Positions 113 to 46,988 of a DNA stretch of 64,000 nucleotides are shown one piece after another. How positions within the stretch are numbered: the first letter of the stretch is position 1; the number at the start of each line of letters is the position of its first letter. This DNA is from Antedon mediterranea. Taxonomy: Eukaryota > Animalia > Echinodermata. The stretch covers positions 28,321,175 through 28,385,174 of the forward strand of contig NC_092677.1 of NCBI RefSeq assembly GCF_964355755.1, written 5' to 3'. The position numbers and the translations under genes were made by a program. The notes under the pieces were generated by a model, which saw only the letters and a program-made list of their open reading frames with translations, ran no database searches and was not told the origin of the DNA.

Positions 113-277
113 GCTGACAATAACATTCTAGTATTATCATGTTACTAATATTTTAATAATGTTGATGGCAGTACTAACCTCTCCTTTAAGACACACCTCA
201 GTGTATTCAGGGGAAACCCTTATTGACAGGGGTTCCACTGTATAAATACCATTGACGATTTTTGTTTTCTAATGTAG

Positions 278-6200: not shown

Positions 6201-9200
6201 AAAACAAAAAGTGTTATGTTGCATTGTGGATGTTGATTTAATTTCAGGTATGTCGAACAAGTTTTCCCAGGAAAGTATGGTATTCCACAACCGATTTACT
6301 TCCCTTTCCAAAGATCCTACTGGTTTGGACCTTCTTTAAACGAAATCGATGTTTGCCGAAATGATGAAGGAGGGGTAAGAATATAATTAAGAATAAATAA
6401 ATATCAATAACTTTGATTTTTGCAGAAACTGAATATTAATTAGAAAATACAATTTAAATTAAATACATACATGTTTTATACTTCACAGTTTTCTATGGAT
6501 AGGATAATTAGCAAAAACCATGAAGAATCCCCAAATTTGGAAGTTGGTATTGATATTAAAAAACTGCGTAAAGTTTACCATGTAAGTATATTGCTTATTA
6601 TGTTAGGCTTGTTAGTTCATGGAGGAAATATACAGATGTATACATATATATGTGTATATTTCCTCCATGGTTAGTTTTAATATGTTTTATATTTTTTTCA
6701 TATCCTGAAAACATCCGGATTAAACATATGCAGATAATTGATTAATAGCGTAATAAACAAAACAGCAAAATGTTTATATTTTACTTAGAGTTCAGTTGGG
6801 AAAAAACTTGCTGTTGATGACCTCTCACTGAAGATGTACAAAGGTCAAATAACATCTCTTCTTGGTCACAACGGAGCTGGTAAAACTACTACAATGTCCA
6901 TATTGACCGGTTTATTTCCACCAACTTCAGGCTCAGCTACTATCAATGGCAAGAGTATTGTGACAGACATTCAATCTGTACGGTCAAGTCTCGGCTTATG
7001 TCCACAGCACAATGTCTTGTTTGATCGTCTGACGGTTAAAGAACATCTCGATTTCTTTATTAATCTAAAGGTAATCAACAATTAACTATTAGTAACCATT
7101 TATATTATACAGTCACGTGTCAATAACAAATCATTATTAACAAATTTGTGTTTTTTATTATAGGGTAAAAGTGGCCCAGAAGCCAATGCTGAAGTAAAGT
7201 CAATGATAGAAGACTTACAATTGGTTGACAAGACTAACACAGCATCCAGTTCACTGTCAGGTGGCATGAAACGAAAACTGAGGTAAACTTCTTCTCCATT
7301 TATCTACAAATTCGGATTCCAACTCTGATTTTATAGAAACGCAATTATTCCATTAAAAAAATCTATATATATATATATTTGTCACATATTCTGTATTTTA
7401 GTTGTGCGATTGCTTTGATTGGAGGATCAGAAGTTGTGATTCTAGATGAGCCTACCTCTGGCATGGATCCATATGCACGTCGCGCTACTTGGGATTTGTT
7501 ATTAAAGTACAAAGCAGGAAAGACCATGGTACTCACTACACACTTTATGTAAGTAATGTATACAATATTAATATGTACATAGTAAGGGTTTTCAAATGAA
7601 TATCCTCCGCAATTGTAAGCCTACATATTATATGTTATAAATACTGATTCTGATTGATTCTTTACTTTAGGGACGAGGCCGATTTGTTGGGAGATCGTAT
7701 TGCCATCATGGCACACGGACAACTACTCTGCAGTGGCAGCTCTCACTTTCTTAAAAACCGATATGGAGTTGGTTATCACATGACACTGGTTAAGAATGAA
7801 AATTGCCAAGTTGATCAACTTACAAAAATTATTCAAGATTATGTACCTGGAAGTTATCTGGAGTCAAATATTGGTGCAGAGCTTGCTTATATTTTACCAG
7901 GGGACAGTACCTCGCAGTTTCAATCGCTTTTTGAAAATGTTGAAGGTACTGTATACTTTAGCCGATAATGTAGCATTATCATACACACCACCTGCTCTAA
8001 AAAAAACTATCCTATGTATATTATCTCTTTCTTTGTGTTATAGGACAGCGAACAAGTCTCGGTGTTGAAAGTTTCGGTGTGTCCATCACAACTTTAGAAG
8101 AAGTATTCATGAAAGTTGGTGAACAAGCAGAAGCAAAAGCAAATGGAACTGCCAACAATGACGATGATGAAGAAGCCGTTGCATCTACAACAATGCAGAA
8201 TATTCAGAAGGCAGCACAAACTGTAGATATTTCAAAACTGGAGATTAAAAGAGAAGGTATTGTGCACATTATTTATTATTTCTAGTTAAAATGTTAGTAA
8301 ACCATTTTTTAACAATCGTTTGTTTTAATTACTATAAACGTTTTATTTTCAGAATTGTTGACTGGGTTTGATTTAAAAGTTCAACAGTTTAAGGCCATGT
8401 TTCTGAAACGTTTCCTAAACAGCAGACGGGACAAAAAGGCCGTTCTTCTTCAACTTTTCTTTCCATTGATGTTTATTTTACTTGGGTTAATTATCATTTT
8501 AACTACCGGTGGCGCTGGTGGTGATGATGCTAAGTTAGAATTAAGTTTGAGCAAGTTAAACGAAGCTGAAAACGTTGACCATAAGGTGTATTATGCCGAC
8601 TTTACCACAAATGCTGCTGTTAGAGATGTACAGGTAATCATACTTCATTCTTAATTACCACAAATGCTGCTGCTGTTAGAGATGTACAGGTAATCATACT
8701 TAATGCTGCTGTTAGAGATGTACAGGTAATCATACTTAATGCTGCTGTTAGAGATGTACAGGTAATCATACTTAATGCTGCTGTTAGAGATGTACAGGTT
8801 ATCATACTTAATGCTGCTGTTAGAGATGTACAGGTAATCATACTTAATGCTGCTGTTAGAGATGTACAGGTAGTCATACTTAATGCTGCTGTTAGAGATG
8901 TACAGGTAATCATACTTAATGCTGCTGTTAGAGATGTACAGGTAATCATACTTAATGCTGCTGTTAGAGATGTACTGGTAGTCATACTTAATGCTGCTGT
9001 TAGAGATTTACAGGTAATCATACTTAATGCTGCTGCTGTTAGAGATGTACAGGTAATCATACTTCATTCTTAAAAGAATATAATGTTTCACAATATAGTG
9101 ATCGTCAAAAGGAAGAGTATCAGTTTCGAATGCTTGGTGTTTAGAACCTCAAAATTTTACCATTTTAAGCTTGTAGTGGCAGTAACTCTACATAGGAAAT

Positions 9201-12200
9201 GTTTTTGTTTTAATTTTTGTTACCTATAATTATTGTTTCAAGATTGATAATTGTTTTTCCACATTTGATGAATATAAATTACTCAATTTTTTTCAGAATT
9301 TCGACTATTTAGTAGGATTGAAGTTTAAGCAAAATGATGTTTTAAATGTTCGCAATGATGTCCAAACGATCATAGACATGAATAATGGAAAGGTCAAAGG
9401 TGAACCAGAACCAGTTCCTGTAACAGCAGAGTCATGTTGTCAATACAACTTTATTGTTCTCAACGACAATTGTGCTTCTTGGGTATGTCCGTATTCAAAA
9501 TAAAGCTAATTATTAAAAGCAAACCAAGTCTGTAAAAATGAGGGTTCACTTATCTTCGTAATTAATATTACTAAAATACCATACATTTCGACGTTAGACC
9601 TGTTTTCATTTTTCATCATCAATTTTTTTTTACAGCTAAACTCGGCATCAAGAGATGTGTGCGATGATGTTAACTCGGAATATTCATATACCAACTGCAA
9701 GTCTTGTGTAAACAACACTTAGTACGTATGCTTACGTTTGTTCACTTAACAAAAATGGTCGTTATACTTGAAAATGCTCCTTGATTTATTGTTTCAGTTG
9801 TGCACTATAGTAATGTTGTTTATTAATGCTAAAACTTGCATGCTTCCCAGATTTAGTTTTTTAAAGGATTTGGTTTTATTTTCTAGCTGGGATAGCACCG
9901 AGTGTCCGATTGGGGCACAAGTGAGTATTTTATCAGATCCAAATACTTACTTTCAAGAATATGTTTTGGAAAAAAATCCAGACGATATACCAGGGTTTTT
10001 TAACGAGTTGGTGGCAGGCTTTGTGACGGTAGACAATTCATTGGACACTGAGCTACTTGTTGCAAACATCCTCGCAGTCTCTAACAACAGCGCAGTTGTA
10101 AGTAATTCTTTAATGTTTCCTTTAACACAGGTTGAAACATATTCATATATAAACAATAAATGTCGTTTCTTCAATTTAACAAAAATAGAATGTACAAGTA
10201 GATAGACTCGTTGGCGGATTGCATTGATGAACTTGTACCCTAATCTATATTGTGACATAACTTGTTTTTTTTTCAGTCGAATGTGACATTTATTAAACAA
10301 TTAGCAAACTCTGATTTGGTAACTTCTGCTACAAATGTGACAAATGGAACTTTAATTACAGCATGGTATAGCAATGAGGTATTTTACAGCTTTAATATTT
10401 TTAACTAAAGTTGTATTATCACATTATTCAGCATCAAGTGTGAGTGTTCAAATCAAATAAAACGAATTTAAATTGAGATGATTTTGGGAGAAATGTCTTA
10501 TTTAATATTATCTTTTTTCAAATGACAGGCCTATCATACATCAGCACAAGTTCTTAATGCTGCTTCTAACATGATTCTGCAGGCTGTTACTAGTGATGAA
10601 TACAGCATTAAAACTTATAACTACCCACTGCCTAAAGATCTCACATCTCAGGTATTTGAACATTATGAAGTTAAAAATAAATATACATACCAAATACGGT
10701 ATCTACTTTAGTACTCTTTTCAATTGACAAATCGGATTTTCTCAAAGTTTGCGTCTGTCCAAAACATAGAAGCGTGACAATGTTTTGGCCACGTGCGGCT
10801 TATTCTTCACTTATCAGCTTCACGTATCCAATATTGTTGTGTAGGTGGATGACGCTTCATCGGGTGAGGATACATTTGGGCTTGCAATCTTAGTTGTCTT
10901 TGGTATGGCGTTTCTCACTGCTAGCTTTATTGGTTTCATTGTCGGAGAAAAGGAAAATAAGGTAATGATGAAAATAATTGATTTTACTCGTTTTTATTAA
11001 GGTGTTTGTTAATAGTTTTATAATATAAATATATCATCATCTATCTTACCAAACTAAAAACAAATATATTGTGTTTACAGGCGAAGCATCTTCAGTTCGT
11101 AAGTGGAGTTGATACTTTAAGTTACTGGGGAGCTACATTCGTATGGGATCTTTGCAATTTTGCTATAGTTTATGTATGTATCATCATCATATTTGCAGCG
11201 GTCAACTTGGATGCTTATGGTGGTGAAAACCTTGGGGCTGTTGCTGTGATCTTTGTAAGTTAATGAATTACTTTAATTTTAATAATGATAGAATATACAT
11301 TGAGAGATGGTTGCAAGTCATATTAAAGTCCATATTTCGAAATTATTAGCTTGCAACTCTTGAATTTAACATTTGTTCTTAAAAGACATTTTTTATATTT
11401 ATTCCTACATAAGTTATACAATGTTTTATTATTTGTAGTTATTATTTGGTTGGATGGCTATTCCATTTGTGTATAGCGCATCTTTTCTGTTCAAGACTCC
11501 AGTCAATGCCACAGCTCTCACTATATTCCTCCTTGCTATTCTTAGCATGGTAAGTAAACAATTATTGTATAACCTTAATATTCAAAACTGAACTGTAATG
11601 TTTATTCTATTTGAATTTGTTGATCACCGATTATTGAATATAACATTTGATATTGAATATAACATTTAATATTGAATATAACATTTGATATTGAATATAA
11701 CATTTGATATTGAATATAACATTTGATATTGAATATAACATTTGATATTGAATATAACATTTGATATTGAATATAACATTTGATATTGAATATAACATTT
11801 GATATTGAATATAACATTTGATATTGAATATAACATTTGATATTGAATATAACATTTGATATTGAATATAACATTTGATATTGAATATAACATTTGATAT
11901 TGAATATAACATTTGATATTGAATATAACATTTGATATTGAATATAACATTTGATATTGAATATAACATTTGATATTGAATATAACATTTGATATTGAAT
12001 ATAACATTTGATATTGAATATAACATTTGATATTGAATATAACATTTGATATTGAATATAACATTTGATATTGAATATAACATTTGATATTGAATATAAC
12101 ATTTGATATTGAATATAACATTTGATATTGAATATAACATTTGATATTGAATATAACATTTGATATTGAATATAACATTTGATATTGAATATAACATTTG

Positions 12201-15200
12201 ATATTGAATATAACATTTGATATTGAATATAACATTTGATATTGAATATAACATTTGATATTGAATATAACATTTGATATTGAATATAACATTTGATATT
12301 GAATATAACAATTAATATTGAATATAACATTTGATATTATACAGATATTGACTGCTTAGAGGTTAAATATAAGATTTGATATTAACAATTTAATATTGAC
12401 AATTAATATTGAATATAACATTTGATATTAACAATTAATATTGAATATAACATTTGATATTAACAATTAATATTGAATATAACATTTAATATTGACAATT
12501 AATATTGAATATAACATTTGATATTAACAATTTAATATTGACAATTAATATTGAATATAACATTTGATATTAACAATTTAATATTGACAATTAATATTGA
12601 ATATAAGATTTGATATTAACAATTTAATATTGACAATTAATATTGAATATAACATTTTATTTGATATTAACAATTTAATATTGACAATTAATATTGAATA
12701 TAACATTTGTCTAAAATTCTTTCTTTTTTATTATACAGTTTACGATTCTTACTGTTTTTATCTTGGGATTATTTGATGACGACATACCTGACGGTTTAGC
12801 TGACCAATTGGATTATATATTTTGCCTTATTCCAACACATTGCCTGGGTCAGGCTCTTATTACACTGGGCAATAATGATGCTATAAGGCGAGTGTGCACC
12901 ACGGACCAAGAGTAAGTTTGATACTCATACTCTAAGTAACAAGGCCATATACATGGCTGCAGTCGCCTGCTCAAGTTGCCTGCTCAAGTTGTTTACCGAC
13001 CGACCAACCGACCGACATAGTGAGCTGTAGAGTCGCGTTGCACGCTACTAAAAACTAAAAATCTACTTTCGTTGAACAAAAACATTATAAATAAAACGTT
13101 TGTGTGTAAATGAATATTTGTGACAATATGAGTTAAGAACATTGAACTTTTTTTAAACGTTGGTACCACTTTTTGGTTTGTTATAAAATATATGTTTAAA
13201 TCTGTATTTTTAAAATATGTTTCACAGTTCAATGATGACTTGTATAGACGGTGGTGTTAAATACGAAGACAACAACTTAGCCTGGGACAAGCCTGGTATT
13301 GGTACCTATTGTTTGTACATGTTCATAGCAGGAGTTGCCTTTATTATTCTTACATTGCTTATTGAGGTAATTTTGATCATTATGATTATATTTGGCTATG
13401 ACGTCTCATGGTTGATTCTCTTTCCTTATTATCTATATTATTTTTCTTTATTGTAGGTCAACTTTTTTATTCCTGCAAGATCCGCGTCAGTTTTAAAGAA
13501 TCACATTCCAAGTCCAGACGTAAGTTAACTTTCTTTAAAAAACAGCCATTAAGTCGCGTGCTACAATGCATAGTGATACCGGACCGACAGACAAACAGAC
13601 CGACAGACAGACGGACCGACCGACATAGTGAACTATACTGACCGAAATGTTTAAAAATGTTGAAATGTTTAAAAACATTTATATTTTACACGTGCGTAGC
13701 CTGTCACTTTTGACGTGCTCGTATAACGTAATTTCGAGTTGAAAAGTAAGTCAAGAAAACAGAAATCAGGCAAAAAGAGTGCGCAATAACATTTAACGCG
13801 CAGTGCGCGCGCAAAAATCTGCGCACTCATGGCAATTTTGTAAACGCTTAAAATTGCCTGAAACGTACTCTTATTTCATCGAAAATAAATTTTGAAAATT
13901 TTAAGCGCGCGTACGCATGCGTTACATGCGCTACGCACGTAATTGTATTGCCATATGTTGATTTATGCCCTGAAATTTATGAGTACCAAATTTTATTTAA
14001 TTGTGATTCATGGTTGTTAAGATATGATTACAAACGTGATTTCGTTAAATCGTGCGTAGACCGCGTAATTTTTTATTGCGCACCGTGAAAACATAACCAC
14101 ATCGATTCCTGGCCATAAGGAATATTCTGTGAAAAATTGACTTAGCTAGATTAAACTGATATCAAGATAAGGTCATAAAGCGATAAAACGCATAGTGATA
14201 CCGGACTGACAGACAGACAGACAGACCGACAGACAGACCGACAGACAGACACACAGACCGACCGACCGACATAGTGAACTATAGAGTCGCTTCCACGCGA
14301 CTAAAAACATGATAGATAACGTATAATGGATATTTCACGTGTTTCATTTTTGTTCGGTGAATGAAGTTTAAGTGATAGATTTTTGGCTAAATATTGAATC
14401 AATTCGATGCAACCTAACGGTATTTCCTATATCATTCGGTTCTTTTTATTACATTTTGTATTCTTGTTTTAGGAATCAGATGTTGCAGCTGAAAGACAGA
14501 AGGTTCTACAACTTGATCTTAGTCAGGATGATTCAGCTGTTGTACTAAAAAACCTCTCAAAGGTACAAATTCAGTTTTATTCTATAGCTTGTATATGTAT
14601 ATTTTTTAATTGTCTTCATCATAATTACAATTCGACGATATTATTTCAACAGGTGTATCCAAAGAAACCCGCACCGGCTGTGGATCAACTGTGTCTTGAG
14701 ATACCCAAAGGACAATGCTTTGGACTGCTTGGAGTTAATGGTATTTATATTTCAGCATCTTTTACTAGATGTTTCTTTACACTGTATTTTAACGATAGGC
14801 AGGTGATATAAATGTCATGTCATGCCTATGTTAAAAGATGTTTGTTATATTATCATTAGGTGCTGGCAAGACTACAACATTTGGAATGTTGACAGGTGAT
14901 CTGAGCATTACAGCAGGAACGGCTTACATGGATGGATTTGACATCCAAACACAGAGGAAACTTGTAAGTGTTGTTATAAGAAATTGGAGTATAAATAGAT
15001 TTGCATTAAAAATGAAGTGAAATACTGTAAGTATGATTTATTCACTTTGTATTTCATATTTTGTTACAGGTTCAGCAACGAATTGGTTACTGTCCACAGG
15101 TTAGTGTAACGTTTTAAATATAGAATGCATAGGGAAAAAACTGTGTATAAAATATAAATGAATTATTAAATGGATAATGTTAATCAAAGTGTTTGTTGTA

Positions 15201-17034
15201 CTTTTATTATTCAGTTTGATGCTTTGATTGAGAGGTTAACAGGACGTGAAGTATTGACAATGTTTGCTCGTCTTCGTGGTATTCCAAGTCATCACATTGA
15301 AAATGTTGTTGAAACTACCGTCACACACTTGTCTCTTAATAAATGGGCAGATAAACTGTGTGGTGATTATAGGTATGTTGTCACTGATCAATAAAATTAT
15401 ATTTTACTATTCAAAGAAAAATAACAGTATCGATGTGGACATTCGTTTATGTACAAAAACATAATTTATGGACGGGATTTAAACATTTTCAACTGCATAC
15501 AGATTATAGCAAATCGATAATAACGTTACCAAATGTTTTCAATTTGATTTGTCTAATTTCTTATAGTGGTGGAAACAAGAGGAAACTTAGCACTGGTATT
15601 GCTTTAGTTGGAAACCCACCAATTGTGTTCTTGGTAAGAATTACAAGGCAGTGTTTCAATCTTAAAATAATAAATTAAACCGGACTTTGATATTCCTTAC
15701 TCCATTTATAATTTTATTTTAGGATGAGCCAACATCTGGAATGGACCCAACCGCACGGCGATATCTTTGGAATGCTCTAACATCAATCATGAAAGGAGGA
15801 CGTTCCATTGTGCTAACATCACATAGGTATAAAGTCTTTATAATTAGTTATTCTGTTTGATGTAGTCTATATAGTTTGAATTGGTACAGTACCTTTCTAA
15901 TTTTGTAAAATAATTGTGTGTCCATCTGAATGACACAATTGTTTACTTTATACCTACCTTCCTGTTACAGTATGGAAGAGTGTGAGGCCTTATGTACCCG
16001 TTTGGCTATAATGGTAAACGGACAATTTAAATGTCTTGGGAGCACACAACATCTTAAAAGCAGGTAACCAACGTCTTATGTTGTAAATATTAGGTTTAAT
16101 TAAATTTTCTGTTCAAATAAAATATATCCTATGAGGAGCATTATTAATAATGTACTTGATAAACTGCTTATTATTCCTAGTGAGACAGTAATTATGCATT
16201 TAATGTGTATGCATACCGTACGTTTGTAAATTATCATTATTAATAATATTTAAATTTGACAGATATGGCAAGGGATATACTATGGTTATTAAAATGGAAG
16301 ACGGTGTGCCATCAGAAGGCATCAAAGCATATATTACTGGAACGTTTCCAGGCGCAGTCTTAATGGAGGAACATCAGGTAATTATTCCAGCAATATTCAC
16401 ATTTAGGCCTATAGCCTATATAATTGAATTCATTAAAAAAAAATGTCATTATCTATTTTTGTATTTATTTATTTTTGTAACTACAGGGTGTATTACAATA
16501 TCAAGTGGAAAATAGTGATCTTAGCTGGTCTTACATATTTGGTAAATTAGAAAGTAACAAACAAGCGTTGAGAATGGAAGATTACAGCGTCAGTCAGACA
16601 ACACTAGAACAGGTATTTTGTCATATTTAAATTGGTATTTTACAAATGTGCCATTCTTTCAGCCAAAGTTGCTAATTTTTAAAAATCGAAAAATAGAAAA
16701 ATGTAAGATGGGTTCATACTCACTATAGCATGTCTCGCAAAGTATAGTTTAAACTCTTTTTATTATCCCTTTATTTAAGGTGTTTATTAATTTTGCGAAA
16801 GAGCAGCACACAGACGCAGCATTTTCCAGAAAATTAAACAAGGCACATCACACAGAATACGCACAAAGACCATCAACTGGGGCTAGTCTTCGTAGAGAAT
16901 CAACCAGGAGAAGTTTAAGATCAGGACCACAGTCACCAAGATCGACATCACCACCACCAGCTGCTGCAAATGGTGGGACTTCACCCCCACCGTACTCACC
17001 TGCGCCTCAATATAATGCTGCTTATATGGTTTGA
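278..17034 (+). CDS. ABCA3: ABCA-subfamily full transporter, paralog A (ABCA3-like); about 40 coding exons in the window, first coding exon upstream of it
   Basis: GT-AG exons join in frame from [14 protein letters not shown] (278-351) to TGA at 17034. Motifs: [15 protein letters not shown] (4876-5019); NBD1 Walker [10 protein letters not shown] (6789-7070), [26 protein letters not shown]; NBD2 [38 protein letters not shown]; [13 protein letters not shown]. The subfamily call is firm; ABCA3 orthology is only a best guess. Confidence 0.93.
1011..1743. repeat. 49-bp intronic minisatellite, about 15 copies
   Basis: Unit tggcacttgttattgttgatgatgacaaaacatgtagcaaaaagcagac. Confidence 0.95.
2724..2855. 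repeat. Direct tandem duplication of about 65 bp (2 copies)
   Basis: tttgcggtcagtgattggtcactagtcctagcgtaagttaggcctacgtatttgatggctgatgc occurs twice. Confidence 0.9.
8602..9073 (+). repeat. 36-bp tandem array spanning an ABCA-A exon end and splice donor, 12 donor copies
   Basis: Unit aatgctgctgttagagatgtacag|gtaatcatactt; donors at 8634, 8690, 8726 ... 9053. Confidence 0.95.
11633..12709. repeat. 19-bp AT-rich minisatellite (about 36 near-perfect copies) followed by a derived composite array
   Basis: Unit ttgaatataacatttgata to about 12330, then mixed with ttaacaatttaata and ttgacaattaata subunits. Confidence 0.95.
12938..13060 (+). mobile_element. Short Helentron-associated (HINE/DINE-1-like) element
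   Basis: (CCGA)n microsatellite, catagtgagctgtagagtcgcgttgcacgctact 3' hairpin and A-run; homologous to the 3' end of the element at 14260-14307. Confidence 0.55.
13540..14307 (+). mobile_element. Helentron-associated (HINE/DINE-1-like) non-autonomous element
   Basis: (GACA/GACC)n microsatellites, 3' stem-loop agtcgc-ttccac-gcgact followed by AAAAA; core 13688-14170 recurs inverted at 47025-47571. Family assigned from architecture only. Confidence 0.65.
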
Positions 17035-17264
17035 ATCATTTAAACACTATAATTATTATGAATCACGATATAATGATTGGTATGTCATAATTTTTGTAAA
17101 AGTTGTTACTTGGTGTATCAGGAATATTGTAAGAAATATGGCCTATAAAAGAGTTTCTTTGGGTTACAGTTACAGGCTGTATTAACCTTGTAATCCATGA
17201 GTTGTTTTTTTTAACTTTATTTTTTTGTGGACTATAGTGAATGTAGTAGTTCGTTATACTGTAT

Positions 17265-17301
<37 letters not shown>

Positions 17302-18175
17302 CGTTTCAAATTAATTAATTAAATTTCAGTATATCACCGGGCGGTTTAGAATTAATGTTCTTTGCCTCTTGTGTTTATATATATAATCTATGTTATAGCG
17401 TTTTATTGTGTAAACTTAGCACAATATATTCCTAAAAGAAAGTGCAATTATGTGGTAATATTTAATCCATTTTTATGACATTTTTGTGACTGAAATACGA
17501 TTCTCTATATTTTGTGACTGAAAGGCGCTCTAGAATTCTTATTATGCAGCTATATTTTTATATAACATAGATTATAAATTATTTAAAAAACTATAGCGTT
17601 TTAAAATTGAAATATTTAACTTAGGCAGACATTTGGCTTTTTCACCAAAATTATCATTTTATCGGCTTCTAATGAAGCCATGAGTCACATGGTTACCACA
17701 ACAACATACAGTCTGCACCAGCTAATTAGTAATAGATAATATTATAAATATCATATTTTATAACAATTACAGTTTTGCAATAGTCTGACCATTTTATTCA
17801 CATTTTAATGGACAATTACAATTCAACCGAGTTTTTAGGAATTTTCTATATTTTAATAATATTGTTAAATCAGTGTACTGCAATATGGGCAATTGTCTGC
17901 TTTGTCATAGTATTACGTAATCGTTGTCCGTGACAATTGTGTTTGACATTGATAGAATGTGAGTTACCGTAGATTTCAAGGTCTATAACACAATAGCAGT
18001 CGTTTCGTAATAAACTCGGAGTCTCAAAACCAAGAATATTGATTGATAATTGATTTCGAAGCCAGAACATTTTTTTTAATGAATAAAAGTGAAGTTCTAT
18101 AGCTTTGAAATAATTGTTTAGGATGTCTTTTAAAAATCATATGTGTCCAACTGTAATAAAACATAAACATTAATA

Positions 18176-18447
18176 ATGCTGTAGGCTGCTCATTAATAAA
18201 TCGAGTTGGCCAGCTCAAAATACAATATCTGTAGGCTGCTCATTGTGAATAAATCGAGTTGGCCAGCTCAAAATACAATATGCTGTAGGCTGCTCATTGT
18301 GAATAATCGAGTTGGCCAGCTCAAAATACAATATCTGTAGGCTGCTCATTGTGAATAAATCGAGTTGGCCAGCTCAAAATACAATATGCTGTAGGCTGCT
18401 CATTGTGAATAAATCGAGTTGGCCAGCTCAAAATACAATATGCTGTA
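18176..18447. repeat. Minisatellite of about 54 bp, about 5 copies, between the ABCA paralogs
   Basis: Unit ctgtaggctgctcattgtgaataaatcgagttggccagctcaaaatacaatatg. Confidence 0.9.
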
Positions 18448-18764
18448 GATCTTAAAGATGTATATTTTACTCTTGAAAAAAAAATGTTTGTTGAAATATG
18501 CCATTTTAATCACAATGTTATTGATCACTTTGACGAAAAATTGAATGGAAAAAAAAGTATTTAACTCAAAAAATTGTAATTTAATAGTAAACAAAATAGT
18601 CAAACTGGCTTCCAGCCAAAGGGTTTTTGGTTGAATTGAACCATTATTAAATTAATTAAATGTATAATTACAAATAAACATCCGACCTACCAACGAATGA
18701 CAATAATGAATATTCATGACTTGCTACCTGCGCACGTCACTCTGACCTCGAAAAGTACTGTAAT

Positions 18765-29000: not shown

Positions 29001-32000
29001 ATCATGTGGTAAGTATTATTTTTGAGTGGAATACCTTCAGATGTTTTTAATGTATCAAGTCTCCATAGGTTTAGTAGTTATAGCTTGTCTATTCATCTAT
29101 TTCTAAAACAACTCAGAAACATAAAAGCATAGATCGTGTATACGAGTACTTACTATGAAATAGTCAATAGAAGTGATTATCATTTTAGGTATGTAGAGCA
29201 AGTGTTTCCAGGCAAATATGGTATTCCACAACCAATTAATTTTCCTTTTAAGAAGTCATACTGGTGTGGAAATGTAGTGCATGTTTCTCCTGATGATGAA
29301 GCACAGGTACTGTATGCTGTTTCTCTTACTTAATTAAATGTTTAAGTCAAATAAAATTTAATACTTTTATAGAGTTTCTATACTCTGCTGTTATGATACA
29401 TGTTACTTCTTTTGCAATTTTGTACAGATAGCCATGAATAACATCGATAACAAAAATCATGAAAGTGCCCCAAACATTGAAGTTGGTATTGATATTAAGA
29501 ATCTGCGAAAGGTTTACAAGGTAAGTAAAATTACATTTTACAAGGTTTACAAGGTTAGGTTTACAAGGTAAGTAAAATTACATTTTACAAGGTTTAGGTT
29601 AGGTTTACAGTAAAATTACATTTTAGTGATATTACTATTCATACATTAAATACTGAACTCTATGATTTAAAAAAATATCTTCGTTTAGAGTTCAGTTGGG
29701 AAAAAACTTGCTGTGGACGACCTCTCACTGAAGATGTACAAAGGTCAAATAACATCTCTTCTTGGTCACAACGGAGCTGGTAAAACTACTACAATGTCCA
29801 TCTTGACCGGTTTATTTCCACCAACTTCAGGCTCAGCTACTATCAATGGCAAGAGTATTGTGACAGACATTCAATCTGTACGGTCAAGTCTCGGCTTATG
29901 TCCACAGCACAATGTCTTGTTTGATCGTCTGACGGTTAAAGAACATCTGGATTTCTTTATTAATCTAAAGGTAATCAACAATTAACTATTAGTAACCATT
30001 TATATTATACAGTCACGTGTCAATAAAAAATCATTATTAACAAATTTGTGCTTTGTTTTATAGGGTAAAAGTGGTGCAGAAGCCAATGCTGAAGTAAGGT
30101 CAATGATAGAAGACTTACAACTGGTTGACAAGACTAACACAGCATCCAGTTCACTGTCAGGTGGCATGAAACGAAAACTGAGGTAAACTTCTTCTCCATT
30201 TATCTACAAATGCTGATTTTAACTCTGATTTTATAGAAACGCAATTATTCCATTAAAAAAATATGTATTTGTCACATATTCTGTATTTTAGTTGTGCGAT
30301 TGCTTTGATTGGAGGATCAGAAGTTGTGATTCTAGATGAGCCTACCTCTGGCATGGATCCATATGCACGTCGGGCTACTTGGGATTTGTTATTAAAGTAC
30401 AAAGCAGGAAAGACCATGGTACTCACTACACACTTCATGTAAGTAATGTATACAATATTTTAATTATCTTCAGATAATCTTTTTCAAATGTAACAGGTCC
30501 GCAATTGTATATATGTTATAAATACAGATTTTCGCACCGCTGCTTTAGCCAGCTATGTCCGAAGAGGATATACTCATTAAGAAGCTTTATCATCGTAGTA
30601 GCTATAGTTCTAAGGCCGACAGTTTTGGGAATTTGTAAACTCGACTATAATTTATAGGTCCCAGCTGCTGGACCCAAAAAACGTATAAAGCGAGTCTATG
30701 AGGGCTCACGGTTGAACGATTTTGCATTCTCGCTCTTTGATTGGTTGGCGAGAATCAACAGACTGAGGAAGAATTTTCTCACTTGTACCGCCGTAAAGTC
30801 ACGTTGTCTAGAGGGTATTCAGTTGCATGCCTACAGGTTGGGCTCACACACACACAGCACATTAAAGTTCAAAATTTACCATTTTTAAATGCCATTTTTT
30901 AATTAGTAGATTAATATTTTGTTGGATAGGTACACATGTCTTCTTTCAAATTGTTGAAAATTAGCAGAAATATCAATTATTCAATGAAATACAACCAGAT
31001 TACTAACACCCAACAAAATGGCCATGATGTGATTTATAATTAAATAGCTATGTTAGATTTTGTGTATTTTTGCGATTAACCAACATATTTTTATTTTGTT
31101 ACACGTTTCCATGGCAACAAAATGTTCATAAATTATTAAAAATTGTGTATTTATAGTACAATTAACTAGTGAAAAAATTGGCATAATGTGATTCTTAATT
31201 AAAGAACTATCTTTGATTTGTATGTATTTTTGCAATTAAAGAACATCTTTTAATAATTAATCATTTAATATATCTGAAGAAAGAACAATGATTAATTTTA
31301 AAATGTCGAGTGGCGTTTTTTGTAAGAAATATTTCTTATTTACTTTAGGGACGAGGCCGATTTGTTGGGAGATCGTATTGCCATCATGGCACACGGACAA
31401 CTACTCTGCAGCGGCAGCTCTCACTTTCTTAAAAACCGATATGGAGTTGGTTATCACATGACACTGGTTAAGAATGAAAATTGCCAAGTTGATCAACTTA
31501 CAAAAATTATTCAAGATTATGTACCTGGAAGTTATCTGGAGTCAAATATTGGTGCAGAGCTTGCTTATATTTTACCAGGGGACAGTACCTCACAGTTTCA
31601 ATCGCTTTTTGAAAATGTTGAAGGTACTGTATACTTTATGTTGAAGGTACTGTATACTTTATGTTGAAGGTACTGTATACTTTATGTTGAAGGTACTGTA
31701 TACTTTATGTTGAAGGTACTGTATACTTTATGTTGAAGGTACTGTATACTTTATGTTGAAGGTACTGTATACTTTATGTTGAAGGTACTGTATACTTTAG
31801 CCGATAATGTAGCATTATCATACACACCAGATGCTCCACAATAATATAGTATATTTACATTTCTCTTTCTTTGTGTTGCAGCAAAGCGAACAAGTCTCGG
31901 CGTTGAAAGTTTTGGTGTGTCCATCACAACTTTAGAAGAAGTATTCATGAAAGTTGGTGAGCAAGCAGAGGCAAAAGCGAATGGAACTGCCAACAATGAC

Positions 32001-35000
32001 GAGGGTGAGGGCGCTGTTGCATCCACCACGATGCAGAATATTCAGAAAGCAGAAAAAGCTGTTAATATCTCACAACTTGAAACCAGAAGAGAAGGTACTT
32101 AAAATAAATAAATTTGCATAATGTTCTAAACTCAAGTAATATGTAGGAATTTTTATTTAAACCTATCTAAAACTGGATCTAACGTTTGTTTCTTTTTTTT
32201 TCAGATTTGCTTAGTGGGTTAGCTTTAAAAGCTCAGCAGTTTAAAGCTATGTATATTAAGCGTTTTCTCAACAGTAAACGTGACAAAAAAGCTGTCATTA
32301 TTCAATTCTTTTTCCCACTTTTGTTCATTTTTCTTGGATTATTGATTATTCTACTTTCTGGGGGTAGTGCGGCTACTGATGATCCTAAGTTGGAACTAAG
32401 TTTGATTAAGTTGAATGAGGCTGAAGACTTAAATCATCGGGCATATTATGCTGACTTTACTGGCAATGACGCAGTCAAGATATTTCAGGTCATTTTCTTA
32501 TACTACTATAACACTACACAATTGAAAATAAGTTGTTGCAATGAGGAATACCATTGATAATGATTTAGCATAAAATACTCCTTATTCTTAATATCTTAGA
32601 ATGTTGAAAGTTACTTGGTCAGCCTAAAATTTTTAGAAGAAAGTGTAGAAAATATAGAAGGTACAGTACAGACTCTGATGAATGAAAACAGCTATGGAAA
32701 GGTCAAAGGTGAAGACATACCGAGTCCAATGGCACGATACTGTTGTTTGTACAACTTCATCATTTTGAATGAGGAGTGTTCTTCTTGGGTGAGTCCTTTG
32801 TCAATCTTATTGATCATACAAAAAAAATGAAAAGAGTTTTTTTCAAGTGTCCTTTGTCACTCTTATTGGTCATAAATTATTATATGACAATGACGGAAAA
32901 AACAATTGCACAAACATTCATATAATCAGCAAATTGTTTATTTTAGATCCGTAATCAGCCTGAAGATGCATGCAAAGACTATCCTGAATATTCCTACACA
33001 AACTGCCCATCTTGCTATAATTCTACAGAGAAGTAAGTAATATTCATTGACACTGTTTAACATTGGCTTACTTATATTACAATAAACTTTTGTTTAATTT
33101 GCTAGGTTATATGGTTCATGTCCAGTTGGTGCACAACCCAGCATTCTGTCTGACCCAAACACTTACTTTCAAGAGAGCGTCTTGGAAGAAGATGCTGACA
33201 ATGAACCTAACTTTTTCAATGAACTTGTGGCAGGTTTTGTTTCTGTTAACGCTACCTTTGATGCACAGCAAGTTGTTCCAAATCTTTATGCAATTTTCAA
33301 TAATAGTTTAATTGTAAGTATTTGATAGGAATGAGATGTGTACCAACAACCATATTTTCTCTGTATGAAAATAATATCATGGTGCAGTACACCACAACAC
33401 TGCTTTCTAAATCAATCCAGGGAAAAGTGAAATTCAATCTAATCATTTACTGATTTGTGACAGGAAGACAAACATTTTGAAACAAAACTGATTTACCTAA
33501 AAATGTAATTTGTGTTATGCTAATTTTCATATAAATATGTTTATATTTTCAGGCAAATGTGTCATTTGTTAAGAAACTAGAAGAAGTGAATTTTTATGAG
33601 CTTGCATTAAATGTTAGTACTGGGACTCTAGTGACAGCCTGGTACAGTAATGAGGTAAAATGTTCTACTTTTTAATGGAGACAAACACTAATGGTTAAGA
33701 TGAAATGTTATTATATCAGCATTACTGTTTGGAAATAAGATGTTATTATATCAGCATTACTGTTTGGAAATAAGATGTTATTATATCAGCATTACTGTTT
33801 GGAAATAAGATGTTATTATATCAGCATTACTGTTTGGAAATAAGACGTTATTATATCAGCATTACTGTTTGGAAATAAGATGTTATTATATCAGCATTAC
33901 TGTTTGGAAATAAGATGTTATTATATCAGCATTACTGTTAGGAAATAAGATGTTATTATATCAGCATTACTGTTAGGAAATAAGATGTTATTATATCAGC
34001 ATTACTGTTTGGAAATAAGATGTTATTATATCAGCATTACTGTTTGGAAATAAGATGTTATTATATCAGCATTACTGTTAGGAAATAAGATGTTATTATA
34101 TCAGCATTACTGTTAGGAAATAAGATGTTATTATATCAGCATTACTGTTAGGAAATAAGATGTTATTATATCAGCATTACTGTTAGGAAATAAGATGTTA
34201 TTATATCAGCATTACTGTTAGGAAATAAGATGTTATTATATCAGCATTACTGTTTGGAAATAAGATGTTATTATATCAGCATTACTGTTTGGAAATAAGA
34301 TGTTATTATATCAGCATTACTGTTTGGAAATAAGATGTTATTATATCAGCATTACTGTTAGGAAATAAGATGTTATTATATCAGCATTACTGTTTGGAAA
34401 TAAGATGTTATTATATCAGCATTACTGTTTGGAAATAAGATGTTATTATATCAGCATTACTGTTAGGAAATAAGATGTTATTATATCAGCATTACTGTTA
34501 GGAAATAAGATGTTATTATATCAGCATTACTGTTAGGAAATAAGATGTTATTATATCAGCATTACTGTTAGGAAATAAGATGTTATTATATCAGCATTAC
34601 TGTTAGGAAATAAGATGTTATTATATCAGCATTACTGTTTGGAAATAAGATGTTATTATATCAGCATTACTGTTAGGAAATAAGATGTTATTATATCAGC
34701 ATTACTGTTAGGAAATAAGATGCAAATTGCAGGCATACTATAGTATACTTCTTTTTCAACCTTTTTTAATATCATGACATTTGAAAATTAAAATTCAAAG
34801 CATGCCATACAACATTTGTTTGTAATTTACATGGGCACCATACAGTACATAATTACAAGCATACCATACCTTTAGCCCAAGCATGCCATACAACATTTGT
34901 TTGTAATTTACATGGGCACCATACAGTACATAATTACAAGCATACCATACCTTTAGCCCAAGCATGCCATACAACATTTGTTTGTAATTTACATGGGCAC

Positions 35001-38000
35001 CATACAGTACATAATTACAAGCATACCATACTTGTTTTTTTTTCAAATTATACCCATACCATATGTTTTTGTTTTCACATTACAGGCATACCATACCTCT
35101 GTGCAAGTTCTTAATGCTGCTTCTAACATGATACTGAAGTCTTTTACTAGCGATGAATACAGCATTACAACTTACAACTATCCCCTGCCTCGGAATGTAA
35201 CAGCTCAGGTATTTTATCCTCAGTTTAAGTACTATTTTTAAAACATATTATTGAAAGTATACATATCTAGTATGTAGTAAAATTGACTTTTTATTGTGAA
35301 TACAAGATACTAAGTCTACTTTATTGTAAAAACTTTACATTTTTGAGATATGTTTTGTACCATAGTAGATCATTAAATAATACATAGTGATATATATTTA
35401 AATAAATTTCATGCCATATACAGTGTTGAAAATCTGAAACGTTTTGTCAAAATTGTTTTCTGTGTCAGTCTAGCCCTTCCTGATCTGCTAATAATAATAA
35501 TATCTGAGTGTAATGGGTGGGTTGAGTCTTGTATAATTGAGTTTTCTTAAGTATAAACATTTTAAAATGAACATGTTTTCAGTTAGTATTTTTATGTTAC
35601 ATAGGCAGAGGAAGCAGCTTCAAGTGAGAGTGCATTTGGTCTGTCAATCTTGGTGGTATTTGGTATGGCTTTTCTTTCAGCTAGTTTCATCGGTTTTGTT
35701 GTTGGTGAGAGAGAAAACAAGGTGACTATACTTTCTACCTTTGTTTTCACAGTAGTTGAGTTCCTGCATCATACATACTATTACTTTTATTACATTTAAT
35801 TATCAATCTTTATTATCAACCTAAACAAATATATTTTCTCAATTAAATGAAGTTAACACAACAGCAACAACTCAATTTCCTCTCTCATTGAAAGCACTTC
35901 TTGAAGTAAGCATAAAAACATATTGTTGTATTTTGTAGGCAAAGCATCTTCAGTTTGTGAGTGGTGTTGATCCACTGAGTTATTGGGGTGCTACCTTTGT
36001 ATGGGATGTGTGTAATTTTGCCATTGTCTTTGTTGGTATCATCATCATGTTTGCAGCATTTAATCTAGATGCATACGGAGGTTCTAATCTTGGAACAGTT
36101 GCTTTACTCTTTGTAAGTTTCAATTTTGTATAAAAATTACGAGTGAGAATCAAAATCTTAAGGCATTTAATGAAAATGCAGACTGTCTTAAAAGAAGAAA
36201 ACTATTCATCAGAACTGTAATCAAAGCCTAGAGTACTTATATACCTACTAAACAGTTATATTTAAATGAGGCAATAATTTACAGAATAAAGACATCATGG
36301 ATATCAATCCACCACTGATATTATGTCATTTGTTTTGTTTTCTTTGTAGCTGTTATTTGGTTGGATGGCTATTCCATTTATCTATAGTGCAGCTTTTATG
36401 TTCAAGACTCCAGTCAATGCCACAGCTCTTACAATATTCCTCCTTGCTATTCTAAGCATGGTAAGTAACGTTGTTCAAGACTCCAGTCAATGCCACAGCT
36501 CTTACAATATTCCTCCTTGCTATTCTAAGCATGGTAAGTAACGTTGTTCAAGACTCCAGTCAATGCCACAGCTCTTACAATATTCCTCCTTGCTATTCTA
36601 AGCATGGTAAGTAACGTTGTTCAAGACTCCAGTCAATGCCACAGCTCTTACAATATTCCTCCTTGCTATTCTAAGCATGGTAAGTAACGTTGTTCAAGAC
36701 TCCAGTCAATGCCACAGCTCTTACAATATTCCTCCTTGCTATTCTAAGCATGGTAAGTAACGTTGTTCAAGACTCCAGTCAATGCCACAGCTCTTACAAT
36801 ATTCCTCCTTGCTATTCTAAGCATGGTAAGTAACGTTGTTCAAGACTCCAGTCAATGCCACAGCTCTTTCCTCCTTGCTATTCTAAGCATGGTAAGTAAC
36901 GTTGTTCAAGACTCCAGTCAATGCCACAGCTCTTACAATATTCCTCCATGCTATTCTAAGCATGGTAAGTAACGTTGTTCAAGACTCCAGTCAATGCCAC
37001 AGCTCTTACAATATTCCTCCTTGCTATTCTAAGCATGGTAAGTAACGAATGTAAAGCAACTTACTGTACCTATTTAGTATGTTTGATATTATATTATTTT
37101 TAATAGATTAAGGTGGTGAAAATTAGGTAAATAAAAGTAATTTGAATTTGTTTGTGTTTCAACAGTTTACAATTCTTACTATCTTTGTCCTGAGTATTCC
37201 TGGACTTGGATTGGAGAGCACAGCCAATGCGTTAGACTATGTGTTTTGTCTTATTCCAACACATTGCTTAGGACGAGCATTCTCTGTATTAGGTGATAAT
37301 GATGGTTTGAGACGGATATGCACTGCCAGTCAAGAGTGAGTTTATAAACAAAACATTTATTTATTAATTATTATTTTAGAAATGTGGATTTTTGGCTACA
37401 CCACTGTGTAGCCTTTATTGGAAACAAGTACTGCTATGATTGTGTTTTTGTAAACTTTTGGTTTTCTAAATAGACTTGAGTATTGATATTGTTGTATAAT
37501 TAGTTTGTGTATATTGTTTTTATATTATGATATTAGAGCTATGATAAATTGTCAAATGTCAGGATATGTCTATCAAGATAGCAACTTAGCCTGGGACAAG
37601 CCTGGTATTGGTACTTATTGTTTGTACATGTTTATTGGTGGAATTGTGTTCATCATTCTCACATTGCTTATTGAGGTGAGTTAAATATTATTTTCAGAGG
37701 TAGGCATTTTATATTTATATACATTAAGTACTTATATTTTATATTTATATGGATCATCATTTGTTTGCATTTTGCAAAAAAAAAGGTATGATAAATGAAA
37801 AATTTGATAATGTATTAATTAATTTAAAAAATGATAATGTATTAATAGACTTCTGTTTTTGTTATCAGGTCAACTTCTTTATCCCTTCTCGTTCAGCTTC
37901 TGTGCTCAAAGGGCACGTTTCAAATCCAGATGTAAGTTTTATTTATAATGGTTACATTACAGACAGCCTTTATAATTTGTGTGATGTATGTTATACATTC

Positions 38001-41000
38001 TACTGTGGCATATTTTAACGATATAACTTGTTATTTTGTTTCTAGGATTCAGATGTTGCAGATGAGAGACAAAAAGTTTCTGAGCTTGATCCTAAAAACA
38101 GTGATTCTGCTGTAATTTTACAAAATCTTTCCAAGGTAAAAGATTAGATGAGAAATTTAACTCATTTAATTTTAAATGTTGATTCATTGAGTAATCCTAA
38201 CCCAGAATCACAAATTTAATAATATTGAATACTATGTTAAAATACTGTATATATACCTTTCAGGTGTACAGGAAGAAGCCAGCTCCTGCAGTGGATCAAC
38301 TATGTCTTAACATACCCAAGGGTCAATGCTTTGGTCTTCTTGGAGTTAATGGTATGTACCTGTATATATTAACTCAATACAACAGCTTTAAATTTTATTA
38401 TGTATTATTAATATTGAAAGTCTGACATTTGTCATGTTATAAATTATTGTATTAGGTGCTGGCAAGACTACAACATTTGGAATGTTGACAGGTGATCTGA
38501 GCATTACAGCAGGAACAGCTTACATGGATGGATTTGACATCCAAACACAGAGGAAACTCGTAAGTCTATGTTGATTGAAAAAGATTTAAACTATGATGCA
38601 TTTTGTTTGTACCTCATTGTTAAAAGGACAATAAAAAATATTCAAACTTTGTATAATTCAAGACACCTTTTCAAGTCGAATTTTTCTTGTTTTATCAAAC
38701 AATAATTCATATATTTTGTCAACAGGTTCAGCAAAGAATTGGATACTGCCCTCAGGTTAGTGAACTTTCTTTCTTGTTGTAAAAGATTCCTGATATTGTA
38801 TTCATCACTACATGATAACAAATAATAGTTTTAAAGAATTGCTTCTTGAGTTCTACGGCAAATTGATACATGATACTGTTTCTTTTTTTAGTTTGATGCT
38901 TTGCTTGAGCGGCTAACAGGACGTGAAGTATTGACAATGTTTGCTCGTCTTCGTGGTATTCCAAATCATAACATTGAAAATGTTGTTGAAACTACCGTCA
39001 CACATTTGTCTCTTAATAAATGGGCAGATAAACTGTGTGGTGATTATAGGTATGTTGTCACTGATAAACTGTGTGGTGATTATAGGTATGTTGTCACTGA
39101 TAAACTGTGTGGTGATTATAGGTATGTTGTCACTGATAAACTGTGTGGTGATTATAGGTATGTTGTCACTGATAAACTGTGTGGTGATTATAGGTATGTT
39201 GTCACTGATAAACTGTGTGGTGATTATAGTTATGTTGTCACTGATAAACTGTGTGGTGATTATAGGTATGTTACCAGTCAATCAAATGCTCTGATACTCC
39301 TGCTCTAGTAAACAATCTTAAGATATTTTTTATGTGTATGATGATACAAAAAATAAATTTATTTTAAACATTTGTTTAAGTTATAATAATTTTTTTTATA
39401 GTGGTGGAAACAAGAGGAAACTTAGCACTGGTATTGCTTTAGTTGGGAACCCACCAATTGTTTTCCTGGTAAGAATGGTTACATAATATTATAACTAACT
39501 CTTCACAGATTTACGATGTTTGTGTATAAGTATGAACAACCAAGTAGGACAAATATATTGAAATTATTCCAGATACAATAAGAAATATTTTTATCCAACT
39601 GAACTTCAGAAAACTTGTCTAGTGCGGTAGTTTCTTGTCAGTAGAGTGGATTTTTAATTAAGAATTAATTATGAGAATGAAATATTACATCTGGCACATT
39701 TAATTCTTTAGGATGAGCCTACGTCTGGAATGGACCCAACCGCACGACGATATCTATGGAATGCTCTGACATCTGTCATGAAAGGTGGACGCTCCATTGT
39801 GCTAACATCACATAGGTAGAGTTTATTTTAAATTAGCTATACTGATTGATATAATCTGCTTCCCAAGTTTGTAATTGAAACTAATAATCTATCTTGTTAC
39901 AGTATGGAAGAGTGTGAGGCCTTATGTACCCGTTTGGCTATAATGGTAAACGGACAATTTAAATGTCTAGGGAGCACACAACATCTTAAAAGCAGGTATA
40001 CTATTATTTGGCCTTGTTGCTTCTTCCATATCTCATATGAATGAGACATGTGAGACATTCTGTTAATTTTCATTAAGGACTGAATAAATTGGAAGCATAA
40101 TATTCATGAGTTAAACATGTATCTACTGTATGCATTCAATGACTGACATTGTTTTGTAGGTATGGCAAGGGCTATACAATGGTATCTACTGTATGCATTC
40201 AATGACTGACATTGTTTTGTAGGTATGACAAGGGCTATACAATGGTATCTACTGTATGCATTCAATGACTGACATTGTTTTGTAGGTATGACAAGGGCTA
40301 TACAATGGTATCTACTGTATGCATTCAATGACTGACATTGTTTTGTAGGTATGGCAAGGGCTATACAATGGTATCTACTGTATGCATTCAATGACTGACA
40401 TTGTTTTGTAGGTATGGCAAGGGCTATACAATGGTTGTTAAAATGGAAGATGGTGTGCCCATGGATGGAATTAAATCATTCATTAATGGAACATTTGAAG
40501 GTGCAGTTCTTTTGGAGGAACATCAGGTAAACTATGTCATAATACAGACCTTCAGTTCTATTAGTTCATTCAGTTTATGAAAGGTTTTGTATTTAATAAC
40601 AATATTACAATACAATGTTATTCAGGGTGTATTACAATATCAAGTGGAAAATAGTGATCTTAGCTGGTCTTACATATTTGGTAAATTAGAAAGTAACAAA
40701 CAGGAGTTGAGAATGGAAGATTACAGCGTCAGTCAGACAACACTAGAACAGGTAAGACATTTGACAGTTATTGTCTCCAACATGTGTATACCATGCTCTT
40801 TAGTATCAGGCTTTTCTTCTTTCATGTTTTTATACCAAAATAAAAAAACAAAGAGTGGGTTCTTAAATTATTACTTTCATTTGTTTAAGGTGTTTATCAA
40901 TTTTGCAAAAGAGCAGCACACAGACGCAGCATTTTCCAGAAAATTAAACAAGGCACATCACACAACATACGTAGAAGTTCCATCAACTGGGGCTAATCTT

Positions 41001-46957: not shown

Positions 46958-46988
<31 letters not shown>

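What the first reader, a model, noticed from the sequence alone, without database searches (positions are those of the whole stretch)
8602..40435. Eight exon-intron junctions of an ABCA gene pair are tandemly amplified into splice-site arrays
Seen: repeat units that straddle real splice sites at 8602 (donor x12), 24482 (acceptor x2), 26329 (donor x33), 29511 (donor x2+), 31615 (donor x8), 36399 (donor x9), 39027 (donor x7) and 40119 (acceptor x5). Seven are in paralog B, and the sister paralog has one copy at each junction, showing the pre-expansion state. In each case the exon-proximal copy leaves the ORF intact. Established: tandem duplication of AG|GT-containing sequence is a proposed but rarely observed route to intron and exon gain. 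Inference: either a genome-wide slippage mutator is filtered so that only intronic or junction-spanning expansions survive, or the process is biased to junctions. Either way the spliceosome must choose among many identical sites, so copy number could tune isoform ratios or NMD.
Basis: partly seen in the sequence, partly recalled or inferred. Interest (0 to 1): 0.88.

Follow-up and report, generated by a model that had tools for sequence, protein, structure and literature searches.

The report
Splice-site minisatellites in feather-star ABCA genes
In two neighbouring lipid-transporter genes of a feather star, eight exon borders have been copied head-to-tail 2 to 33 times; this is a known kind of repeat, no more frequent at borders than chance plus likely removal of harmful copies would give, but one repeat was likely copied in part from the sister gene.

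Summary
All eight arrays are there with the stated copy numbers, in two intact ABCA3-like paralogs of Antedon mediterranea. Read-derived contigs support three of them, one in a run of another study. They are 'mirage' / F7-type minisatellites, a known kind, which this scan has met before on other genomes. Junction bias is not shown: 8 of 17 long-unit arrays in four genes cross a junction, against 6.0 expected once wholly exonic ones are excluded (P=0.21). None is wholly exonic (3.8 expected, P=0.012). No intron or exon was gained. A related organism lacks the 29511 and 39027 duplications and has a different, purely intronic array beside 40119, so the arrays look young. Three extras. The 39027 unit carries paralog A's intron start (16 of 16 letters), which points to birth by a paralog template switch. 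Five of six arrayed donors are strong, and the 40119 acceptor would regenerate a donor, so a splicing filter is plausible. RefSeq isoform X2 starts at the methionine of the 72-bp unit. Which copy is spliced inside an array could not be established.

The parts
278..17034 (+). ABCA3-like gene A, 40 exons in window (first coding exon lies before the window)
   Evidence: matches XP_071958195.1
20026..41054 (+). ABCA3-like gene B, 41 exons, 1820 aa, intact
   Evidence: matches XP_071958196.1 (X1) except one extra N-terminal Met
8602..9072 (+). Gene A exon 18 (window numbering) donor x12: 56-nt founder duplication, then 36-nt units; native donor after 8633; distal use gives a stop at residue 950
24483..24772 (+). 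Gene B exon 6 acceptor x2, 150-bp unit; upstream copy diverged; native acceptor before 24693; upstream use gives a stop
26328..28704 (+). Gene B exon 10 donor x33, 72-bp unit (63 exonic + 9 intronic), 7 variant positions mostly interspersed; in-frame TAA right after each donor; RefSeq X2 begins at the Met inside this unit
29510..29630 (+). Gene B exon 13 donor x2 with patchwork of partial templated copies; a contig of organism B joins across with 23 letters where the window has 106
31615..31799 (+). Gene B exon 17 donor x8, 23-bp unit, all identical; lies inside a tract identical to paralog A that ends 45 nt into the intron
36399..37047 (+). Gene B exon 27 donor x9, 73-bp unit (62 exonic + 11), one unit with a 7-nt deletion
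39027..39272 (+). Gene B exon 35 donor x7, 36-bp unit; intronic part equals paralog A's intron start (15373-15388), last copy carries B's own intron; the only array whose distal use stays in frame (+12 aa per unit, just before the NBD2 signature)
15373..15388 (+). Paralog A intron start, likely template of the intronic part of the 39027 unit
   Evidence: 16 of 16 letters match the unit; its first 13 nt occur only here and in the array
40119..40435 (+). Gene B exon 39 acceptor x5, 63-bp unit (41 intronic + 22 exonic); AG|GTATGG, so splicing to an upstream copy would regenerate the strongest donor-like junction of 79
1..12709 (.). Purely intronic long-unit arrays in gene A at 1 (37 bp), 1011 (49), 2724 (65), 11632-12709 (19 and 46, compound); comparison set
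22290..35031 (.). Purely intronic long-unit arrays in gene B at 22290 (133/36 compound), 33705 (35 x29), 34798 (81 x2.9); comparison set

Best explanation
These are real 'mirage'-type minisatellites, likely by-products of a general local tandem-duplication process in an intron-dense, repeat-rich region, likely kept only where splicing still returns the normal mRNA. Steps: (1, inferred) a repair or fork template switch at 0-3 nt of microhomology, or with a small insert, duplicates 20-150 bp of unique sequence anywhere; (2, inferred) unequal exchange or slippage then expands the pair to up to 33 copies; (3, statistically supported) wholly exonic events are purged, while junction-spanning ones leave one native junction and put the spare copies in the intron; (4, inferred from F7 and amphioxus, not shown inside these arrays) the spliceosome mostly takes the exon-proximal copy, with minor leak to distal copies that in 7 of 8 arrays would make a premature stop. 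At least one array (39027) was likely seeded by a template switch to paralog A during ectopic gene conversion.
For: Shown: arrays, copy numbers, intact frames. Reality: run X1 has depth 1379 and 1654 in the bins of the 39027 and 40119 arrays against about 300 for single copy; run X8 of another study holds a 93-nt contig (63+30) of the 40119 unit with no difference; X1 depth over 31615 implies a repeat contig near 1640. Array-rich setting: 21 long-unit arrays cover 18.6% of the window; median exon 119, median introns 165 and 201.5. Null model on collapsed genes: 8 of 17 junction-spanning, 6.0 expected without exonic placements (P=0.21); 0 exonic against 3.8 (P=0.012); with 18 short or weak repeats added 10 of 35 against 7.8 (P=0.225). 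Junction and intronic arrays share the same founding signature: 1-2 nt microhomology (26329, 31615, 40119), a 1-nt insert (36399), 2-3 nt (2724, 33705), a 9-nt insert (34798). Young: organism B contigs join across 29511 and 39027 without the duplication, and it has its own intronic 46-bp array at 40110-40141. Gene B is transcribed and spliced (X8 record 18, exons 29-32), has a full-length RefSeq isoform, dN/dS A vs B 0.15/0.71, and 13 of 17 listed exonic X5 differences are synonymous. Splicing filter, post hoc: 5 of 6 arrayed donors lie at or above the 80th percentile of 79 donors (leave-out matrix, permutation P=0.003-0.006).
Against: Without conditioning on purging, junction overlap is borderline (8 of 15 ABCA arrays against 4.4, P=0.035; 8 of 17 against 4.8, P=0.064), and gene B alone gives 7 of 10 against 3.9 (P=0.041). 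The 7:1 split between B and A is unexplained (binomial P=0.07; Fisher P=0.12). The donor-strength signal fades with a plain consensus-match count (P=0.16) and the weakest donor (31615) carries 8 perfect copies. RefSeq isoform X2 (XP_071958198.1) starts at the Met of the 72-bp unit, downstream of three in-frame Mets of native exon 10, as expected if a distal copy is modelled; this may be real distal use or ambiguous read mapping. No run showed which copy is used inside an array of this species. Only one 64-kb window was available (no genome); the array list is hand-curated. X1 may be the source of the assembly. The 8602, 24482, 26329 and 36399 arrays were not checked against reads.
Confidence: 0.7

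Rival explanations
1. Paralog-driven junction bias: ectopic gene conversion between A and B runs along near-identical exons and fails where homology stops, at exon borders, so aborted conversion seeds duplications across splice sites.
For: 10 of 40 exon pairs are 96-99% identical while most others are 51-82%, and identity usually ends within 2-8 nt of the border. The 39027 unit matches A's intron start at 16 of 16 letters and B's own at 11 of 16; the last 3 are microhomology with the unit start; chance for the 6 diagnostic letters about 1.3e-4. Organism B carries B's own intron start and no array. 31615 and 36399 also sit in near-identical exon ends.
Against: Only 3 of 8 arrays sit at exon ends with 28 or more of 30 letters shared, against 22 of 79 ends overall (counted), so no enrichment. 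Only 1 of 8 shows a paralog-specific trace. Intronic arrays outside any homology have the same signature.
Confidence: 0.12
2. Regulatory rheostat: copy number tunes the share of distal-site use and so of NMD or in-frame isoforms, and is selected.
For: Distal use gives a stop in 7 of 8 arrays and an in-frame +12 aa ladder at 39027. RefSeq X2 starts in the 72-bp unit. The human ABCA7 VNTR includes the exon 18 donor and shows retention of one unit (PMC5954066, passages); 6-16 and CBS use the next two copies (PMC1557585 introduction).
Against: At least two arrays are missing in organism B, so not conserved. Units differ in length, frame and stop content with no common design. Variants inside units fall in the donor 9-mer in 5 of 12 cases in three arrays, i.e. 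decoys are not protected. The in-frame insert would land directly before the NBD2 signature.
Confidence: 0.08
3. Gene B is a redundant paralog under relaxed selection and accumulates splice-damaging arrays on the way to loss.
For: 7 of 8 junction arrays are in B.
Against: Intact 1820-aa frame, RefSeq X1, spliced contigs in two RNA-like runs, 13 of 17 synonymous differences; the 7:1 split is not significant (P=0.07).
Confidence: 0.06
4. Assembly or library artefact.
For: 29511 and 24482 look noisy; four arrays were not checked on reads; X1 may be the assembly's own sample.
Against: Repeat-unit contigs and raised depth in X1, the 63-bp unit in X8 of another study, a contig of X1 identical to 29567-29748; recurring interspersed variants in the 33-copy array.
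Confidence: 0.04

Closest known systems
'Mirage' minisatellites of amphioxus (Adh3; globins BflGb6, BflGb9). PMC3087553, passages read; the original Adh3 paper (Canestro et al. 2002) was not held and is known here only through that text
   Same: Tandem duplications across exon-intron borders, donor and acceptor side, invertebrate deuterostome, units 10-160 bp, normal splicing reported, intron-gain model already proposed
   Different: Crinoid; eight in one paralog pair; one unit chimeric between paralogs; comparison with a related organism dates some as young. Somatic or allelic length variation not shown here
Human F7 IVS7 37-bp VNTR and the cases it lists (6-16, CBS IVS13, LMNB2, PDGF). PMC1557585, abstract, introduction and passages read
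   Same: First unit spans the donor; identical decoy donors follow; unit lengths in the same range
   Different: One array per gene in humans; site choice tested there (first site, sometimes next two), not resolved here; short introns here could favour the intron-proximal donor, which that paper notes was seen in older duplicated-site experiments
Human ABCA7 intron 18 25-bp VNTR. PMC5954066, passages read
   Same: ABCA-family gene, repeat includes a canonical donor, one-unit retention gives a frameshift
   Different: ABCA7 unit starts at the GT and holds no exon sequence; effect on splicing and disease measured there; no homology of the repeat is implied
Intron gain by tandem genomic duplication (Rogers model). 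PMC3443670, passages read
   Same: Tandem duplication of sequence with AG|GT
   Different: The model duplicates an exonic AGGT segment and creates an intron; here existing borders are duplicated and no intron or exon has been gained

Membership tests
Mirage / junction-spanning minisatellite | Head-to-tail units of about 10-160 bp | tested here: met
   units 23-150 bp, 2-33 copies
Mirage / junction-spanning minisatellite | Unit holds exon sequence, the real splice site and intron sequence | tested here: met
   8 of 8 against exon maps that match RefSeq proteins
Mirage / junction-spanning minisatellite | Host gene still makes normal mRNA | tested here: inconclusive
   intact frame, RefSeq X1 and spliced contigs, but no contig resolves the copy used inside an array; X2 hints at distal use
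Mirage / junction-spanning minisatellite | Length instability among alleles or cells (VNTR) | tested here: inconclusive
   presence/absence against organism B shown for 29511 and 39027; within-species copy number cannot be read from contigs
Intron gain by tandem genomic duplication | Duplicated segment is exonic with an internal AGGT | tested here: not met
   every unit includes intron sequence of an existing intron
Intron gain by tandem genomic duplication | A new intron or exon relative to the unduplicated gene | tested here: not met
   39 of 39 shared introns same position and phase
Recursive-splicing (ratchet) site, for 40119 only | Acceptor directly followed by a donor that is regenerated on splicing | tested here: met
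   CAG|GTATGG would form; best score of 16 GT-starting junctions among 79, 77th percentile of native donors. The ratchet concept is recalled, no paper read
Recursive-splicing (ratchet) site, for 40119 only | Splicing intermediates or lariats at the site | not testable with these tools
   only assembled contigs were available
ABCA full transporter (ABCA3-like) | Two TMD-NBD halves with ABC_tran, ABC2_membrane_3 and R1 domains | tested here: met
   Pfam hits on single exons (5 of 7 exons scanned had a hit); RefSeq names and precomputed domains

The most novel reading that the evidence does not exclude
Ectopic gene conversion between tandem paralogs seeds splice-site minisatellites, because homology ends at exon borders (39027 is a caught case), and a splicing filter then decides which survive: strong first donors that win by scanning, and AG|GT acceptors that repair themselves by recursive splicing. 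The pair would be a natural panel of eight arrays for testing first-come against proximity rules of splice-site choice in a short-intron animal.
Probability: 0.15. Interest if true: 0.62.

Novelty: new member of a known kind. Interest (0 to 1): 0.32.

Why it matters
As a kind it is known, and the density is explained by many short introns in an array-rich region. What remains useful: the amphioxus paper calls the origin of mirages unclear, and the 39027 array gives a direct sequence trace of one origin (template switch to a paralog). A related organism supplies the unduplicated state. Eight arrays with different unit lengths, donor strengths and frames in one expressed gene pair make splice-site choice among identical sites testable with one long-read cDNA run. 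Such arrays also seem to confuse annotation (RefSeq X2).

Tried and rejected
No whole genome is held, so the genome-wide overlap test was replaced by a window-level null. Left out of that null: intergenic arrays (18176, 41133, 41458, 41890, 42787-47201, 63202), repeats with period under 9, and the 46-bp part of the 11632 compound array (counted apart it gives 8 of 16, P=0.16). No listed holder was on record as RNA; X8 and X9 behave as RNA by their GT..AG joints. Copy choice: X9's joints at 39049-39402 and 39995-40412 are native but come from organism B, which shows no junction array there, so they say nothing on choice. X8 has no cover of exons 33-38. X8's spliced contig across exons 17-18 carries paralog A letters. 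X8 has no cover of 29564-29655, which would fit first-donor use but is only a blank. X8's depth on the 63-bp unit (13.2) fits five copies at its intronic background (2.5; estimates 1.0-3.6), so no sign of inclusion in mRNA, and contigs drop rare forms. Absence of the 31615 array in organism B rests on a joined contig that could be paralog A plus a blank bin: inconclusive. Hairpin-prone units: no unit of 14 folded reached z below -2 (range -1.89 to +2.41), rejected. Enrichment of arrays at converted exon ends: 3 of 8 against 22 of 79, rejected. Donor excess 6:2 not significant (P=0.29). Literature: 8 searches; listings showed no paper on such arrays in Antedon or on paralog conversion seeding them, judged from titles and abstract starts only; subscription papers and supplements were not seen.
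Full report
Setting. The window holds two tandem ABCA3-like genes, then PIGM, a coiled-coil gene and the start of a fifth gene. A PIGM exon matches a protein named for Antedon mediterranea at 100%, and the two ABCA models match RefSeq proteins of that species. I mapped 40 exons of A and 41 of B by hand; both give one open frame. All 79 donors are GT and the 39 shared introns agree in position and phase.

Observation. All eight arrays exist with the stated counts. The sister gene has a single junction at each site. It is a close proxy for the earlier state at three sites only.

Are they real? Logan contigs of four coded runs were laid on two stretches. In X1 (DNA, organism A, possibly the source) depth rises from about 300 to 1379 and 1654 in the bins of 39027 and 40119, a repeat contig of about 1640 is implied at 31615, and a contig is identical to the second half of 29511. 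X8, another study, has a 93-nt contig of the 63-bp unit.

More than chance? I collapsed each array to one unit and asked how often a unit of that length falls in exon, intron or across a border. ABCA genes: 8 of 15 cross a border; expected 4.4 (P=0.035) if any placement survives, 5.4 (P=0.115) if wholly exonic ones are purged; B alone 7 of 10 against 3.9 (P=0.041), A 1 of 5 against 1.4. With the two other genes: 8 of 17 against 6.0 (P=0.21), and 0 exonic against 3.8 (P=0.012). With 18 short or weak repeats added: 10 of 35 against 7.8 (P=0.225). The window was picked for looking striking, so these P values flatter the bias. Long-unit arrays fill 18.6% of the window.

Age. In organism B (X5, DNA; a few percent divergent in exons) one contig joins exon 13 to exon 14 with 23 letters where the window has 106, and one joins exon 35 straight into B's own intron with no excess depth. 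Beside 40119 it has a different repeat: a 76-nt contig with loose ends in X5 and a backward joint in X9 give a 46-bp purely intronic unit, at a depth that would mean about 45 copies. So the duplicating process is shared by both lineages, these arrays look young, and one spot gave an intronic array in one lineage and a junction array in the other, as a general process would.

Origin. Founding joints show 1-3 nt microhomology or small inserts in junction and intronic arrays alike; 29511 is a patchwork of short templated copies. From my own knowledge this fits end-joining or fork template switching and not slippage on a pre-existing repeat; this step is inferred. The 39027 unit is chimeric: its intronic part plus the next three letters match paralog A's intron start at 16 of 16, B's own at 11 of 16, and the 13-mer occurs only in A and in the array. 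A and B exchange sequence: 10 of 40 exon pairs are 96-99% identical on a background of dS 0.71. The simplest reading is a conversion tract from A that ran 13-16 nt past the donor and switched back to B 36 nt too early. This does not generalise within the window: 3 of 8 arrays sit at near-identical exon ends against 22 of 79 ends overall.

Splicing. Using a distal copy gives a premature stop in 7 of 8 arrays; at 39027 it adds 12 residues per unit before the NBD2 signature. B is transcribed and spliced in X8 and X9, but no contig resolves the copy used inside an array. RefSeq lists a full-length X1 and an X2 that starts at the Met within the 72-bp unit, 12 nt behind an in-frame TAA of the preceding unit. 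That is what a model with a distal donor would give; reads with under 63 nt of exon overhang map equally to all 33 donors, so it may be an annotation artefact. Two post hoc hints of a splicing filter: the six arrayed donors score above the other donors by a leave-out matrix (P=0.003-0.006; in 3 of 3 pairs where the paralogs differ the array is on the stronger donor), but not by a plain consensus count (P=0.16); and the five-copy acceptor array is at the junction that would regenerate the best donor of 79, which would let a wrong first choice be re-spliced to the native product. Both rest on very few cases.

Known kinds. Junction-spanning minisatellites are described in human F7, 6-16, CBS, LMNB2 and PDGF (PMC1557585; abstract, introduction, passages), in ABCA7 (PMC5954066; passages) and as 'mirages' in amphioxus (PMC3087553; passages), where an intron-gain model is already drawn and the origin is called unclear. 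The Rogers intron-gain model needs an exonic duplication (PMC3443670; passages) and is not met.

Verdict. Real, correctly described, a new member of a known kind. Junction bias, intron gain and regulatory tuning are not shown. The paralog-templated unit, the unduplicated state in a relative and the testable splice-choice panel lift it a little above routine: interest 0.32.

Noticed in passing
window 4876-16612 against 25621-40751: Exon-limited homogenisation of the paralogs: 10 of 40 exon pairs 96-99% identical, mostly in the NBDs, with identity ending within a few bases of the border; introns 14-15 of B are homogenised too. In X5 one contig of about double depth over exon 17 differs from the window at 12 of 256 letters, as if both paralogs share the differences.
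   Followed up: partly
window 40110-40141: Organism B has an independent, purely intronic 46-bp array of roughly 45 copies overlapping the start of the 63-bp unit: a possible local hotspot.
   Followed up: partly
window 30530-31340: High-copy interspersed element in intron 16 of B, absent from A's intron; X1 depth up to 270,000 against 300.
   Followed up: no
window 44099-44326 and 46653-46851: Two 16-bp arrays in inverted orientation about 2.3 kb apart, as in a foldback or MITE-like element (label recalled).
   Followed up: no
window 42765-43585: Element with inverted ends built of palindromic TTGCGCAA repeats.
   Followed up: no
window 52400-53430, minus strand: Broken reverse-transcriptase-like fragments of a non-LTR element (motifs in ORFs; identity recalled, not scanned).
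   Followed up: no
window 48959-51621: PIGM, five exons, exact match to P0001, with a 64-bp x13 intronic array at 50504 and a 9-bp array at 49144.
   Followed up: yes
window 53608-61883: Seven-exon open frame of 469 codons with a coiled-coil end (ENTR1/SDCCAG3-like by recall, not tested); its 53-bp intronic array at 59134 is interrupted by a 235-bp insert that ends in (AATA)n.
   Followed up: partly
window 63690-64000: Start of a gene with a cytochrome b5-like HPGG motif, fatty-acid 2-hydroxylase-like by recall.
   Followed up: no
window 12950-14310 and 47200-47600: Several copies of a short interspersed element with (GACA)n cores in introns of A; part of 13700-14200 looks like the reverse complement of 47200-47600 (seen by eye).
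   Followed up: no
window 22290-22850: Compound, noisy intronic repeat (36, 133 and 169 bp periods) that begins with GGTTAGG-like runs, also seen inside the 29511 patchwork.
   Followed up: no
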